Source: a virus (taxonomy: Duplodnaviria > Heunggongvirae > Uroviricota > Caudoviricetes). Taken from it: DNA of 5,003 bases. The notes beneath the pieces are model-generated. The model was not told where the DNA came from. It saw only the letters and a program-made list of their open reading frames with translations, and did not search any database. The stretch lies in IMG/VR virus record IMGVR_UViG_2681813273_000013. The stretch is one strand, 5' to 3'. Shown piece by piece: positions 1,180 through 5,003 of this stretch (within the stretch, counting starts at the first letter, position 1; each line of letters opens with the position of its first letter). The position numbers and the translations under genes are program-made.

Positions 1180-1938
1180 TCATGAAGAAATCGCTCTGAC
1201 CATTCCGCGATAATCCAGAGCAGCAACGCCAGCATCAATGCGGACCTTCCAGGCCACACCGTCAACAATAAAGCCCTCCTGCTGCTCAAGGTAAGGCTCG
1301 TCATTACCGTCAAGATAAGCCACCTCAATTGTGTCCGTTCCCTGTGCTGAAAGCATGTACCATTGCTTATCACTGACTTCATCAAGGCGGGGATCGACAA
1401 TAATATCCAGTTGTTTGTGGTACGGGTTATATGAACCACTGTTTGTATCGGCACCGAAAGGCGTGGTTGAGTTAACCATTTGCAACGCTCTGTCTTCCAG
1501 AGCCGCAGGAACAAGAAGGAATTTTGGCACAATATTCAGCACCTCACCGTTTTCATCCCTCTGTGTGCGCATTGCACGGCGTGCAATGCCAAGCCCTGTA
1601 GTGCTGACTCCGTTATCAATATCATTTCCGTGTTTTTTGCTGAACAGCGGTATACCGTCAGAAAGCTTTGTGTTTCCTGTCAGCACCAGATGAACCAGAT
1701 TACCCACCGTTCTGGCGGCTGCTCGCCCCATTGCCTGTGGGATAACTGTTAACTGATTCAGGTCATCGTTAATAATCGCCTGTCGGGTAATGCTGAAAAT
1801 ATTTCCGTAAGTTGCCAGCGCGATTGGTTCGCCACGGTCACTGGTGGTGATGTATTTATATTCCGCGCCTTCCGGCACTTTGTTTAATGTAGAGAAGCCA
1901 TTCAGGCCAACACGACGTGCCTCATGGAAGTTTGACAA
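1180..1938 (-). CDS. Major capsid protein, HK97-fold-like, C-terminal ~250 aa; probably lacks its own N-terminus
   Basis: Position directly after a prohead protease; segments such as ATYGNIFSITRQAIINDD resemble my recollection of the HK97 gp5 pattern (S-x-R-Q-x-hydrophobic-x-DD). The only in-frame start is a TTG with a weak RBS, and 252 aa is short for this fold. Confidence 0.65.
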   Translation of the reverse strand: MSNFHEARRVGLNGFSTLNKVPEGAEYKYITTSDRGEPIALATYGNIFSITRQAIINDDLNQLTVIPQAMGRAAARTVGNLVHLVLTGNTKLSDGIPLFSKKHGNDIDNGVSTTGLGIARRAMRTQRDENGEVLNIVPKFLLVPAALEDRALQMVNSTTPFGADTNSGSYNPYHKQLDIIVDPRLDEVSDKQWYMLSAQGTDTIEVAYLDGNDEPYLEQQEGFIVDGVAWKVRIDAGVAALDYRGMVRAISS

Positions 1939-3047
1939 TGAACCTTTTTTCGTCCACTGGCGGAACGTTTCGCCGCTGTGTTCACGGATTTTTCAGCACC
2001 ACCAGCAAGGATATAAGTAAAATCGCTGCTGCTGTGGGTGAATGCCGCGTTTACTATCTGCGAGCGTGTGCTGTAGCTGCCTGTGCTTATGCCGCGATGG
2101 GTTAATGATGCCTGTGCCATATCGAAAAGGCTCATCATGGCGTAAGGGTTGCCGCGTTCTGCCTGTTCATGTCCCAGACGCGCATTAAGCCCCTGACGCA
2201 TTGCATCGCCGGTTATGTTGCCGTTATCCGTGTACGCGTAGTAAAGATTTGCGGGGGTGGTTTTGTTTGTCGGTGTCGATTCTTTACCCATAGTGAGTAA
2301 AAGGCGTTCGCGTGCATCCTCAACGCTACAGCCTGAATCAGCAAGACAACTTATAGCCAGGTCGTTATATCTTCCATTGAACGTGCCAAACAATTCACGT
2401 ATCCCGTTGAGTCGTTCCTGTTCTCCGCTGCCAGTTTTCTGGCTGATCATGCTTTTAATATTTTCCGGCATATTCGAAAAATCTCCGATTCGTTTTGATT
2501 CAATTCTGGCCATTGCTGTAATCGCGGGTATAACCTCATCTGCGAAGCCATTAGCCTTACACTCATTGCCATCCATCCAGGTTTCCGCCTCCATCATGGC
2601 GGTGATTTCCTGTTTGCTCCTGCCCGTTCTTCCGGCGTAGGTTTCCGCCATCGTGTCGCCCAGCTTGTCCATCAGGTCAGCAAAGCGGCGAACGTCGCCC
2701 GACACTCCGGCAGTAACACCACGGGGGGCATGTATCATCATCATCGCGTTTTCAGGCATAACGATGTGATCGCCACACATGGCAATAAACGAGGCCATAG
2801 AAGCCGCCATGCCTTCAATGTGTACAATTTTCTTTGCCGGATGATTTTTCAGGGCGTTATAGATAGCCAGCCCTTCAAAGATGTCGCCACCAGGTGAATG
2901 GATGCGAAGATGGATTTCAGGCACATTACCGCACGCGTTGATCTCGTCAGTAAGTGCCGATGCTTTTACACCGTACCCGCCGATCTCGTCATAAATGCGT
3001 ACATGTACAACATCAGCCATAGCCTTAATGGAAAACCATGTTTTCAT
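1902..3047 (-). CDS. ClpP-family (S14) prohead serine protease, with a C-terminal extension that looks like scaffold plus capsid N-terminal region
   Basis: Motifs HSPGGDIFEG (ClpP NSPGG), GMAASMASF (catalytic Ser in GxAASM) and MMMIHAPRG (catalytic His) in the N-terminal ~190 aa. ATG start overlaps the upstream ORF stop as ATGA. Terminates 36 nt into the capsid ORF, in a different frame. Confidence 0.85.
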   Translation of the reverse strand: MKTWFSIKAMADVVHVRIYDEIGGYGVKASALTDEINACGNVPEIHLRIHSPGGDIFEGLAIYNALKNHPAKKIVHIEGMAASMASFIAMCGDHIVMPENAMMMIHAPRGVTAGVSGDVRRFADLMDKLGDTMAETYAGRTGRSKQEITAMMEAETWMDGNECKANGFADEVIPAITAMARIESKRIGDFSNMPENIKSMISQKTGSGEQERLNGIRELFGTFNGRYNDLAISCLADSGCSVEDARERLLLTMGKESTPTNKTTPANLYYAYTDNGNITGDAMRQGLNARLGHEQAERGNPYAMMSLFDMAQASLTHRGISTGSYSTRSQIVNAAFTHSSSDFTYILAGGAEKSVNTAAKRSASGRKKVHCQTSMRHVVLA

Positions 3048-3379: not shown

Positions 3380-3626
3380 NNNNNNNNNNNNNNNNNNNNN
3401 NNNNNNNNNNNNNNNNNNNNNNNNNNNNNNNNNNNNNNNNNNNNNNNNNNNNNNNNNNNNNNNNNNNNNNNNNNNNNNNNNNNNNNNNNNNNNNNNNNNN
3501 NNNNNNNNNNNNNNNNNNNNNNNNNNNNNNNNNNNNNNNNNNNNNNNNNNNNNNNNNNNNNNNNNNNNNNNNNNNNNNNNNNNNNNNNNNNNNNNNNNNN
3601 NNNNNNNNNNNNNNNNNNNNNNNNNN
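3380..3626. other. Assembly gap, 247 N
   Basis: Run of n characters. ORFs in the track that cross it (3324-3644, 3364-3714, 3371-3655) are artefacts. Confidence 1.
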
Positions 3627-3635
3627 AACTTAAAC

Positions 3636-3727
3636 TGGTGGTGATGGTGACATAAAAATCAAAAAATACGCCTTTTTCCGCGAACCGCCCGCCCCGTGGA
3701 CAGGCCACCCCCACCAGGAGTACCTAC
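3636..3727. repeat. Copy B of the ~95-bp non-coding repeat (core at 3688-3706)
   Basis: Aligns with 1058-1151 at roughly 85% identity. The left end abuts the N gap, so the copy may be truncated by the assembly. Confidence 0.8.
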
Positions 3728-3750
3728 AAAAAAGCCGGATTGCTCCGGCT
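3728..3750 (-). terminator. Rho-independent terminator for the SSB-like gene (minus strand)
   Basis: Minus strand reads AGCCGGA-gcaa-TCCGGCT followed by T6, 15 nt after the stop at 3766-3768. Confidence 0.75.
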
Positions 3751-3765
3751 TCTGTCACTCGTTGC

Positions 3766-4188
3766 TTAAAACGGTATGTTATCCCCGTACGGATCATCAT
3801 TCCCCGCCTGTTGTTTGGCCCTGTTCAGTGCATCAGTGGCCTGCCCCTGTTGGCCTTTTTTACCGCCCGGTCGCGCCGTTCTGGCACTGATTACACTGTC
3901 TGCGATAACCTGCCAGCCCTGCCGCGTTTCTCCGTTCTGGCCTGTCCACTGGCTTACCTGCATGTTACCCGCCACGCTCACCAGCTCGCCTTTCTGGTGC
4001 TTTGCCAGTGCGTCAGCCTGTCTGCCAAACGCCAGGACGGATAACCATATCGTCGCCGTTCCGTCATCTGCCTGGCTGCACGGCAGGGGAACCGCCATAC
4101 TCGCCATCGTCATTTGCGTACCCTTGCTGGTGGTCTTTAACTGCGGGTCAGCCACCAGCCGCCCGTAAGCCGCTATCTGTGCTGTCAT
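3766..4188 (-). CDS. ssb: Single-stranded DNA-binding protein (SSB family), 140 aa
   Basis: Pattern G-R-L-x-x-D-P at the N-terminus, W...FG...KG...V..G....W.G..R in the middle, Gly/Gln-rich linker, and an acidic C-terminal tail DDPYGDNIPF resembling the canonical DDDIPF. Start ATG overlaps the upstream ORF stop as ATGA. Confidence 0.75.
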   Translation of the reverse strand: MTAQIAAYGRLVADPQLKTTSKGTQMTMASMAVPLPCSQADDGTATIWLSVLAFGRQADALAKHQKGELVSVAGNMQVSQWTGQNGETRQGWQVIADSVISARTARPGGKKGQQGQATDALNRAKQQAGNDDPYGDNIPF

Positions 4189-4430
4189 GCTGTCTGCTCT
4201 CCGGTTTTAACGTTGATGGTTGTCACCTGTTCCGCTTCGGCAATCTCCCGTTCTGTCAGCGTGGCAAAGTTTGCCGCCGTCGTGGTCATGAATGCGCTTA
4301 TCAGTTCGGGATGTGCTTTCGCGTATCCTTCCCCGGCGTTGCGGTCGATGATTTTTATCGCCACCCTCAGCCAGTGTTCTGTCAAATCAAGGGCGTGAGA
4401 TTGTGGTTTTTTGGCGTGCTTCGTTGTCAC
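4185..4430 (-). CDS. Hypothetical protein, 81 aa, translationally coupled to the SSB-like gene
   Basis: GTG start with GAGG 8 nt upstream; stop overlaps the ssb start; protein-like composition; no recognisable motif. Confidence 0.45.
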   Translation of the reverse strand: MTTKHAKKPQSHALDLTEHWLRVAIKIIDRNAGEGYAKAHPELISAFMTTTAANFATLTEREIAEAEQVTTINVKTGEQTA

Positions 4431-4474
4431 AGGCTTTACCTCACAGCAATAAAATAAAATTTTTGCATTTTAAC

Positions 4475-4702
4475 CCTTCACCTGTTCACCTTTTGCAATT
4501 TTCCCTTTTTATTCATGATGTTAATGGGTTAACAGTTTCACAAAAACTATTCACCAACTGTTCACCACTGTTCACCCTTAAAGCTCAATAAAGAATCAAA
4601 AAGGTGAACAGTGAATAGTTTGGTGAACAGTTCATAAATAACTGTTCACCCTATAATATACTGATATAAAAGACATTTATTGCAGGGTGAACAGTGGTGA
4701 AC
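4475..4702. repeat. Iteron array of octamer TGTTCACC / GGTGAACA; resembles the P4 alpha-binding type I iterons of ori/crr
   Basis: Perfect TGTTCACC at 4482, 4558, 4568, 4642; perfect GGTGAACA at 4602, 4621, 4685, 4695; degenerate copies at 4475 (CTTCACC), 4547 (TATTCACC), 4610 (GTGAATAG). Seven copies extend to the 10-mer ACTGTTCACC. AT-rich context. The identity with P4 iterons is from memory of the literature, not a search. Confidence 0.75.
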
Positions 4703-4733
4703 AGTTATTCCATAAGTTTAATTTTTTCCATCG

Positions 4734-5003
4734 TCATTTGTGACCTATTGCACATGATGGCATCCAGTCTTCTGAATCCTCTGTCAGGGTCACATTTGAA
4801 CGCAAACCGTGCTTCGTTTTCCGTTTCATATACTCCCTGCCATATTCCGCCATTGCCCCCGGCATATCTTTACCGAAGCGCGTCAGTGTTACAGGTTTAC
4901 CGAATCCGTGTGCCCTCATATATGCCAGATAGGCGTGATAAAGATACCTGCGCGGACTGAACGGAATAATTTCGGCATTACCCACTAACAGACCATCACA
5001 CAT
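4734..5003 (-). CDS. 3' end of a gene truncated by the window edge; candidate C-terminal origin-binding domain of a P4 alpha-like primase/helicase
   Basis: Open frame runs to the window edge (the ATG at 5001-5003 may be internal); composition more protein-like than the overlapping plus ORF 4694-4960. The alpha assignment is inferred only from the iterons just downstream, mirroring the P4 alpha-then-crr layout. Confidence 0.4.
   Translation of the reverse strand: MCDGLLVGNAEIIPFSPRRYLYHAYLAYMRAHGFGKPVTLTRFGKDMPGAMAEYGREYMKRKTKHGLRSNVTLTEDSEDWMPSCAIGHK

What the first reader, a model, noticed from the sequence alone, without database searches (positions are those of the whole stretch)
4475..4702. 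Bidirectional array of ACTGTTCACC iterons with an embedded TATAAT
Eight perfect and three degenerate copies of one octamer fall within 230 bp, in alternating orientation blocks: direct 4482-4575, inverted 4602-4628, direct 4642, inverted 4685-4702. This matches the P4 type I iteron bound by the alpha protein at ori and crr (from memory). A TATAAT at 4651-4656 abuts an iteron, and the array lies just upstream of the 81-aa/ssb operon start, so iteron binding could couple replication initiation to transcription of that operon.
Basis: partly seen in the sequence, partly recalled or inferred. Interest (0 to 1): 0.55.

Follow-up and report, generated by a model that had tools for sequence, protein, structure and literature searches.

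The report
Replication origin of a phage satellite
The repeat array is the replication origin of a phage-inducible chromosomal island (a phage satellite common in E. coli), built from the same 8-base binding sites as the satellite phage P4 origin, so it is real but an ordinary example of a known kind of element.

Summary
TGTTCACC is the annotated 'ori type 1 repeat' of phage P4. The 12 sites form a dyad of two roughly 105-bp units, each colinear with the P4 ori core. The array starts about 30 bp after the stop of a gene whose C-terminus matches the solved P4 alpha origin-binding domain (1KA8, E=2e-22). The same 12-site layout follows this gene in many Enterobacterales. The octamer changes in concert there (TGTCTACC, TGTCCGCC, TGTCCACC, TCTCTACC), together with one loop of the protein's winged helix. 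The downstream genes vary. The array is colinear with the tested ori of the E. coli island EcCICFT073 and with the region in EcCIRM13514, both catalogued in 2018. I conclude it is a PICI origin bound by its own Rep. The proposed TATAAT link to the 81-aa/ssb operon is not supported: the hexamer is on the wrong strand, has no -35 partner and is not conserved. The origin is a single cluster, not a split ori plus crr as in P4. The Rep has no recognisable primase domain. This is an already known kind, of low interest.

The parts
4734..5003 (-). 3' end of the Pri-Rep (P4 alpha-like) initiator gene. It encodes the C-terminal winged-helix origin-binding domain. The gene continues beyond the window.
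   Evidence: The 89-aa translation hits PDB 1KA8, the P4 alpha origin-binding domain, at E=1.9e-22. The full-length homologue in L001 is 50% identical to P4 alpha residues 320-776. Pfam finds D5_N, DUF5906 and Pox_D5.
4603..4703 (.). Rep-proximal origin unit with six iteron positions: 4603-4610 (-), 4612-4619 (-, degenerate), 4622-4629 (-), 4643-4650 (+), 4686-4693 (-) and 4696-4703 (-).
   Evidence: Searches give the sites. The unit is colinear with the P4 ori core at 9310-9413, and the 43-bp and 10-bp spacings are identical.
4651..4685 (.). A+T-rich inner spacer (77% A+T) of the proximal unit and a candidate melting or helicase-loading region.
   Evidence: Composition is. The 43-44-bp iteron-to-iteron distance is kept in most relatives and in the P4 ori.
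4577..4602 (.). Central A+T-rich spacer (77% A+T) and centre of the dyad, at about 4589.
   Evidence: Its length and sequence vary among relatives, and it is almost absent in Serratia.
4475..4576 (.). Rep-distal origin unit, an inverted copy of the proximal unit. Its iteron positions are 4475-4482 (+, degenerate), 4483-4490 (+), 4529-4536 (-, degenerate), 4548-4555 (+, degenerate), 4559-4566 (+) and 4569-4576 (+).
   Evidence: The reverse complement aligns colinearly with the proximal unit and with the P4 ori core. The whole stretch 4466-4712 folds as one long imperfect hairpin, z=-6.7.
4491..4528 (.). A+T-rich inner spacer (71% A+T) of the distal unit. It carries the conserved motif TTAAC-N4-ATGAAT, at 4511-4525 read on the - strand.
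   Evidence: The motif is conserved across iteron variants in alignment A4.
4440..4472 (.). Distal A/T-rich flank (79% A+T) between the last iteron pair and the next gene. It is conserved as AAATTTTAATTTTAT-like sequence in relatives.
4185..4430 (-). 81-aa gene downstream of the origin. It is a cargo or accessory gene, not part of the origin.
   Evidence: It hits PHROG 1231 at E=5e-49. It is present in EcCICFT073 and EcCIIHE3034, partly in EcCIRM13514, and absent from the 12 non-E. coli relatives examined.
3766..4188 (-). Single-stranded DNA-binding protein gene, which overlaps the end of the 81-aa gene.
   Evidence: Pfam SSB at E=4e-16 and PHROG 44.

Best explanation
The array is the vegetative replication origin of a phage-inducible chromosomal island (PICI) of the EcCICFT073/EcCIRM13514 type. 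It lies directly 3' of the island's initiator gene (Pri-Rep).

Rep is a P4 alpha-like SF3 helicase with a C-terminal winged-helix origin-binding domain. That domain recognises the octamer TGTTCACC, and the wing loop probably reads the central bases.

Twelve sites form two inverted P4-ori-type units. In Rep sense the layout is: two sites, a 35-bp A+T spacer, one opposed site, three sites, then the mirror image. Most spacings are near multiples of a helical turn (10, 21, 43 bp).

Inferred steps: Rep molecules bound to opposed sites assemble hexamers over the A+T-rich spacers, melt them and start bidirectional replication once the island is induced. The second unit probably does the job that the distant crr does in P4.

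What is shown: the sites, their architecture, the homology to P4 ori and to the tested EcCICFT073 ori, and the covariation between protein and DNA. What is inferred: binding, the melting site and helicase loading.
For: 1. There are 8 perfect octamers against 0.28 expected.
2. The octamer is identical to the annotated P4 'ori type 1 repeat'.
3. Each half aligns colinearly with the P4 ori core, with the same 10-bp and 43-bp spacings.
4. The adjacent gene product matches the solved P4 alpha origin-binding domain and the alpha helicase.
5. The same 12-site layout follows the Rep stop codon in Klebsiella, Citrobacter, Raoultella, Pluralibacter, Serratia, Kluyvera, Enterobacter and Symbiopectobacterium.
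6. The octamer changes at all homologous sites together: TGTCTACC, TGTCCGCC, TGTCCACC, TCTCTACC. In the closest clade the Rep origin-binding domain differs essentially only in the wing loop, which gains 5 residues plus substitutions.
7. Within the TGTTCACC group, iteron columns are more conserved than spacer columns: 0.84 against 0.65, p=2e-8.
8. The island holds only one cluster.
9. Downstream genes vary while the link between Rep and the array does not.
10. The array is colinear with the intergenic region of EcCICFT073. The rep-ori segment of that island drives plasmid replication, and deleting its ori impairs it (PMC6092414, Fig. 2 and the Replication section).
11. EcCIRM13514, a PICI named in that paper, carries the same TGTTCACC array.
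Against: No binding or replication experiment exists for this exact sequence. Rep has no recognisable primase domain, so how priming happens is unknown. The position of DNA melting is not established, and the central spacer is poorly conserved. I could not view Fig. 2a of the 2018 paper, so I do not know whether it draws this iteron allele.
Confidence: 0.9

Rival explanations
1. The array is mainly a transcriptional operator and promoter region. Rep binding at the iterons would control a promoter (the TATAAT at 4652-4657) for the 81-aa/ssb operon and so couple replication to transcription.
For: A perfect TATAAT lies one base from an iteron. The array is upstream of the 81-aa/ssb genes. No terminator separates rep from them, so the region is probably transcribed.
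Against: The TATAAT is on the + strand and points away from the - strand operon. It has no -35 partner, and the scan found no promoter on either strand inside the array. The hexamer is not conserved; relatives have ATTAAC, TTTAAC or similar there. Ten of 15 relatives keep the array without the 81-aa/ssb genes, and EcCICFT073 and EcCIIHE3034 have those genes behind a different iteron allele. A TATAAT in 77% A+T sequence is unremarkable.
Confidence: 0.05
2. The array is only a crr-like cis-acting enhancer, as in P4. The true start site (ori) would then lie elsewhere in the island.
For: The array occupies the position of P4 crr, just downstream of the alpha-like gene. Its left end aligns with the left part of the crr 120-bp unit.
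Against: No second TGTTCACC cluster exists anywhere in the 21-kb locus L001 or in the 16.5-kb vB_KppS-Ant genome. Both halves align better with the P4 ori core than with crr, showing the same '3 + 1 opposed + spacer + 2' layout. For EcCICFT073 the cloned rep plus downstream ori segment sufficed for replication (PMC6092414).
Confidence: 0.04
3. The repeats are a structural palindrome (cruciform or hairpin RNA) with a role unrelated to Rep binding, for example a terminator, a recombination site or a small RNA.
For: The stretch 4466-4712 folds as a long hairpin, z=-6.7. It gives weak hits to miRNA-precursor models.
Against: The Rfam scores of 24-38 bits are far below the gathering thresholds of 97-249 bits. 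The symmetry is one of site orientation, not of spacer sequence. What relatives conserve is the octamer and its spacing, and the octamer covaries with the protein's wing loop. No terminator-like site was found.
Confidence: 0.01

Closest known systems
Replication origins of Gram-negative phage-inducible chromosomal islands: EcCICFT073 and EcCIRM13514 (Fillol-Salom et al. 2018, ISME J, PMC6092414)
   Same: The position is the same, directly 3' of pri-rep. There are two sets of iterons around A+T-rich DNA. The island context is the same in the 96.8%-identical homologue L001: int, small HTH gene, Icd-like, DUF4222, primase-family Rep, origin, small gene, ssb, capsid genes. The 12-site layout is colinear with the EcCICFT073 intergenic region. 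The array is nearly the same sequence as that of EcCIRM13514.
   Different: EcCICFT073 uses TGTCTACC-type octamers, and its Rep is only 48% identical. This element carries a ClpP-protease/capsid fusion gene instead of the EcCICFT073 capsid and decoration genes. Function was tested for EcCICFT073, not for this allele.
Satellite phage P4 ori (type I repeats, X51522 positions 9310-9413) and the alpha protein
   Same: The octamer TGTTCACC is identical. The unit layout is the same: three sites, one opposed site, a 43-bp A+T spacer, two sites 10 bp apart. The initiator has a homologous SF3 helicase and winged-helix origin-binding domain.
   Different: P4 has one ori unit plus a separate crr about 4.7 kb away, and a terminator between alpha and crr. 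Here two ori-type units sit head to head in one 230-bp cluster with no terminator. P4 alpha has Zn-ribbon and Toprim primase domains, which this Rep lacks. Outside the repeats no nucleotide similarity was detected by blastn.
P4 crr (two 120-bp direct repeats, X51522 positions 4291-4590)
   Same: The position relative to the initiator gene is the same. The octamer is the same. Two adjacent sites are followed by a T-rich spacer of the same length.
   Different: crr units are direct repeats with a different site order (2, spacer, 3 opposed, 1). The window has inverted units with the ori-type order.
SaPI and other Gram-positive PICI origins (iterons flanking an A+T-rich region, 3' of pri/rep). The comparison rests on the introduction of PMC6092414 and on my own knowledge.
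   Same: The logic is the same: the origin lies just after the initiator gene, and iteron specificity is matched to the Rep allele.
   Different: The iteron sequences and the Rep family are unrelated. No sequence comparison was made here.

Membership tests
Gram-negative PICI replication origin | Located immediately 3' of the pri-rep gene | tested here: met
   The array starts about 30 bp after the Rep stop at 4734. The position is the same in EcCICFT073, EcCIIHE3034 and EcCIRM13514.
Gram-negative PICI replication origin | Two sets of iterons flanking A+T-rich DNA | tested here: met
   Six sites lie on each side of the 77% A+T centre at 4577-4602, and each unit has its own A+T-rich spacer.
Gram-negative PICI replication origin | Island context: int, alpA-like HTH, pri-rep, integrated at a chromosomal att site, about 10-12 kb | tested here: met
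   This was seen in the 96.8%-identical homologue L001, between mppA and pgrR. The window itself covers only the right part of the island. The small HTH gene was not confirmed as AlpA; Pfam gave only a weak HTH_17 hit.
Gram-negative PICI replication origin | Homology to an experimentally validated PICI ori | tested here: met
   The array is colinear with the EcCICFT073 rep-ssb intergenic region. The function of that region is reported in PMC6092414.
Gram-negative PICI replication origin | Rep-dependent autonomous replication of the fragment | not testable with these tools
   This needs a plasmid maintenance assay.
P4 ori/crr system | Type I octamer TGTTCACC repeated in both orientations | tested here: met
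P4 ori/crr system | Unit architecture of the P4 ori core | tested here: met
   Alignments A1 and A3 show the spacings 43 and 10 preserved.
P4 ori/crr system | Bipartite origin: ori plus a distant crr made of two 120-bp direct repeats | tested here: not met
   There is a single cluster per island, made of inverted units.
P4 ori/crr system | Initiator with Zn-ribbon and Toprim primase, SF3 helicase and winged-helix origin-binding domain | tested here: not met
   The helicase and origin-binding domain are present. The Zn-ribbon and Toprim are absent, and the N-terminal 140 aa have no Pfam match.
P4 ori/crr system | Other P4 hallmark genes (sid, delta, psu, epsilon, cnr) | tested here: not met
   None is annotated in L001. 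The DUF4222 gene that occupies the cnr position shows no similarity to P4 ORF106.
Sigma-70 promoter for the 81-aa/ssb operon | -35 and -10 hexamers on the strand of the operon, conserved in relatives | tested here: not met
   The TATAAT is on the opposite strand, the scan found no site in the array, and the hexamer is not conserved.
DnaA-dependent iteron origin (plasmid type) | DnaA box next to the iterons | tested here: not met
   No TTATCCACA match with up to 2 mismatches lies between 4364 and 4977.

The most novel reading that the evidence does not exclude
This PICI uses exactly the P4 octamer and the P4 ori unit, and its origin-binding domain is homologous to that of alpha. P4 alpha and this PICI Rep might therefore fire or block each other's origins when both satellites share a cell. 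The wing-loop insertions and substitutions that accompany each iteron switch would then be a specificity cassette that diversifies to escape such cross-talk. That cassette would amount to a readable recognition code for building orthogonal rep-ori pairs.
Probability: 0.25. Interest if true: 0.45.

Novelty: already known. Interest (0 to 1): 0.18.

Why it matters
It matters little beyond annotation. The 230-bp array can be labelled as the rep_origin of a PICI found in about 12% of complete E. coli genomes (669 of 5426). RefSeq records leave this stretch unannotated.

Two results from the comparison could be useful. First, the 12-site dyad layout is kept while the octamer switches. Second, the switch coincides with changes confined to the wing loop of the Rep winged helix. 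That gives a concrete hypothesis for how origin specificity is encoded, and for possible cross-recognition with P4.

Tried and rejected
- blastn of 4400-5003 against 50,697 phage records found only vB_KppS-Ant, not P4. The P4 similarity is limited to the repeat units and had to be shown by direct alignment.
- A literature search for the bare octamer returned only primer matches. Two classic P4 papers (PMC372931, PMC413647) are not held. P4 biochemistry is therefore cited from the GenBank annotation, from PMC2777425 and from my own knowledge.
- Rfam hits to plant and animal miRNA precursors over the array are rejected as artefacts of the long dyad, because they score far below the gathering thresholds.
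- The P4 cnr-like hypothesis for the DUF4222 gene upstream of rep is rejected. It has no similarity to P4 ORF106.
- No DnaA box is present in the array.
- There is a single IHF-consensus match in the proximal spacer. It is only partly conserved and not above chance for the whole window, so I leave it as a lead.
- The central spacer is downgraded as the conserved melting site, because it is nearly absent in the Serratia relatives.
- Accession NC_011745.1 (EcCIED1a) is not in the collection.

Full report
**Observation.** The window has exactly eight perfect TGTTCACC octamers, and all of them lie between 4483 and 4703. They start at 4483, 4559, 4569 and 4643 on the + strand and at 4603, 4622, 4686 and 4696 on the - strand. 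Dinucleotide-preserving shuffles give 0.28, and none of 200 reached eight. Seven copies are also perfect as the 10-mer ACTGTTCACC. Four degenerate copies fill the remaining positions: 4475-4482 (+), 4529-4536 (-), 4548-4555 (+) and 4612-4619 (-). The region is 63-72% A+T, against roughly 40-48% in the flanking genes.

**Anatomy.** I read the array in the sense of the neighbouring gene, which is the - strand. The twelve positions run as follows: two sites 10 bp apart, a 43-bp step across an A+T-rich spacer to one opposed site, 21 bp to a block of three sites, a 26-bp A+T-rich centre, then the mirror image. The array is therefore a dyad of two roughly 105-bp units centred near 4589. The stretch 4466-4712 folds as a single long imperfect hairpin, z=-6.7. 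That fold also explains the meaningless sub-threshold Rfam hits to miRNA precursors.

**Relation to P4.** GenBank record X51522 annotates TGTTCACC as the 'ori type 1 repeat' in both crr (4291-4590) and ori (9310-9413) of phage P4. The stretch 4590-4735 aligns colinearly with the P4 ori core, with the 43-bp and 10-bp spacings identical. The reverse complement of the distal half aligns the same way. The crr units align only over the part that holds 'two sites plus spacer'. Outside these units blastn detects no similarity to P4.

**The initiator.**
- The - strand ORF that ends at 4734 is the 3' end of a longer gene. Its 89 residues match the solved origin-binding winged-helix domain of P4 alpha (1KA8, E=1.9e-22).
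- The full-length homologue in E. coli RM10410 (L001, 96.8% identical DNA) has 605 aa. It is 50% identical to alpha residues 320-776, which cover the SF3 helicase and the origin-binding domain.
- Pfam finds D5_N, DUF5906 and Pox_D5 but no Zn-ribbon or Toprim. The N-terminal 140 residues match no Pfam family.
- The alpha domain order (primase, SF3 helicase, winged helix) is described in PMC2777425. That alpha binds the type I repeats is my own knowledge (Ziegelin et al. 1993; Yeo et al. 2002).

**Comparative evidence.**
- Seventy-two loci encoding relatives of Rep were fetched from one genome per species. In Klebsiella, Citrobacter, Raoultella, Pluralibacter, Serratia, Kluyvera, Enterobacter and Symbiopectobacterium the same 12-site layout starts within about 15-40 bp of the Rep stop codon. 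E. ruysiae carries the same iteron type after Rep, but with a different site order.
- The octamer differs between lineages and changes at all homologous positions together. It is TGTCTACC in E. ruysiae, K. georgiana and E. hormaechei. It is TGTCCGCC in two Serratia, TGTCCACC in S. oryzae and TCTCTACC in Symbiopectobacterium. Proteus has a TGTGCACC/TGTTCACC mix, with only a partial array within the 340 bp examined.
- Within the closest clade the Rep origin-binding domain is almost invariant except for the wing loop (KRKTKHG-LRSN in the window). In every lineage with a TGTC-type octamer this loop carries a five-residue insertion and substitutions. This covariation between protein and DNA is the strongest computational evidence here that the domain reads these sites.
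- Within the TGTTCACC group, iteron columns are more conserved than spacer columns: mean pairwise identity 0.84 against 0.65, Mann-Whitney p=2e-8.
- Two non-iteron features are also conserved regardless of iteron type. One is TTAAC-N4-ATGAAT inside the 35-bp spacer. The other is an AAATTTTAATTTTAT-like tract beyond the last site pair.

**Identity of the element.**
- In L001 the gene order is int, small HTH gene, BRO-N, Icd-like, DUF4222, primase-family Rep, the array, 81-aa gene, ssb, ClpP-protease/capsid fusion. The island is inserted between mppA and pgrR.
- This is the layout of the prototypical E. coli PICI EcCICFT073, fetched using the coordinates in Table S1 of PMC6092414. Its rep-ssb intergenic region has the same 12-site dyad with TGTCTACC-type octamers. 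Its Rep is 48% identical over the full length.
[quoted passage not shown] It reports four Pri-Rep alleles in E. coli. It also shows that the EcCICFT073 rep-ori segment supports plasmid replication, with loss when rep is mutated and a significant reduction when ori is deleted.
- EcCIRM13514, another island named in that table, has the same TGTTCACC array as the window.
- EcCI042 has a RepA-family helicase and different repeats (AAGTGAGG) at the same place.
- Arrays similar to the window occur in 669 of 5426 complete E. coli genomes.

**One cluster, not two.** P4 needs ori and a distant crr. Here L001 (21 kb) and the related induced element vB_KppS-Ant (16.5 kb) have a single cluster and no second one. 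No terminator separates rep from the array, whereas P4 has t-alpha there. No DnaA box is present.

**The promoter idea.** The TATAAT is at 4652-4657 on the + strand. It would direct transcription into the end of rep, not toward the 81-aa/ssb genes on the - strand. It has no acceptable -35, and the scan found no promoter in the array on either strand. Relatives have ATTAAC, TTTAAC, TGTAAC or similar at the homologous position. Ten of 15 relatives with the array lack the 81-aa/ssb genes in the next 2 kb. EcCICFT073 and EcCIIHE3034 carry those genes behind a different iteron allele. The array therefore belongs with Rep, and the downstream genes are most simply expressed by read-through from the rep operon. 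That last point is an inference.

**Mechanism.** Rep probably binds the twelve sites through its winged helix. Most spacings are near whole helical turns (10, 21, 43 bp). Opposed sites bracket the two 35-bp A+T-rich spacers. I infer that hexamers of the SF3 helicase domain assemble and open the DNA there, as at papillomavirus and SV40 origins. I also infer that the second inverted unit replaces the looping partner that crr provides in P4. How primers are made without a recognisable primase domain is open.

**Verdict.** The element is a PICI origin of a kind already described and functionally tested in a close relative. The proposed coupling to a TATAAT promoter is not supported. Novelty is 'already known' and interest is low. 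One caveat remains: the figure that maps iterons in the 2018 paper is not held, so I could not confirm that this exact allele was drawn.

Noticed in passing
window 3380-3626: A run of 247 N (masked sequence) lies between the 75-aa gene and ssb. The homologous stretch in L001 is about 9739-9928, is unannotated, and gave only sub-threshold Rfam hits.
   Followed up: partly
window ~1051-1178 and ~3627-3740: A direct repeat of about 115 bp, roughly 80% identical, brackets the protease/capsid gene. On the - strand each copy begins with a GC hairpin (GGCGGC-AGCA-GCCGCC) plus a T run, like a terminator, followed by a G-rich tract. No Rfam family matches.
   Followed up: partly
window 1180-3047 (- strand): The ClpP-like prohead protease/major capsid fusion is one 629-aa ORF in L001. 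In the window it is split into two overlapping ORFs (1902-3047 and 1180-1938), which suggests a frameshift, a pseudogene or a sequencing error. This part of the window is only 89% identical to L001, with 28 gaps.
   Followed up: no
L001 11019-12836 (Rep; only its 3' end is in the window, at 4734-5003): The PICI Rep lacks the Zn-ribbon and Toprim primase domains of P4 alpha. Its N-terminal 140 aa or so have no Pfam match, yet they are much better conserved with the EcCICFT073 Rep than the helicase and origin-binding part. This suggests a mosaic protein and leaves the priming mechanism open.
   Followed up: partly
window 4705-4740: The Rep reading frame ends differently in the window (…SCAIGHK, stop at 4734) and in L001 (…SCASVTNDDGKN, stop about 16 bp closer to the last iteron). 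This points to a small indel near the 3' end.
   Followed up: no
window 4654-4666 (- strand): A single IHF-consensus match (TATCAGTATATTA) sits in the proximal A+T spacer and overlaps the TATAAT. A similar match is present in EcCIRM13514, and Klebsiella is one mismatch away. It is not above chance for the whole window.
   Followed up: partly
window 4511-4525 and alignment A4 columns ~222-236: The spacer motif TTAAC-N4-ATGAAT is conserved across lineages whatever the iteron sequence, and a similar TTAAC is present in the P4 ori. It may be a second recognition element or part of the unwinding region.
   Followed up: no
L078 5725-5924 (EcCI042): At the same position another E. coli PICI has a RepA-family helicase followed by a different repeat (AAGTGAGG). 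This illustrates replacement of rep and ori together as a module.
   Followed up: no
L040 and L041 (Enterobacter, Kluyvera): These true P4-type alpha genes are followed by a hairpin terminator and a crr-like TGTTCACC cluster, as in P4. That contrasts with the terminator-less dyad of the PICI clade.
   Followed up: no
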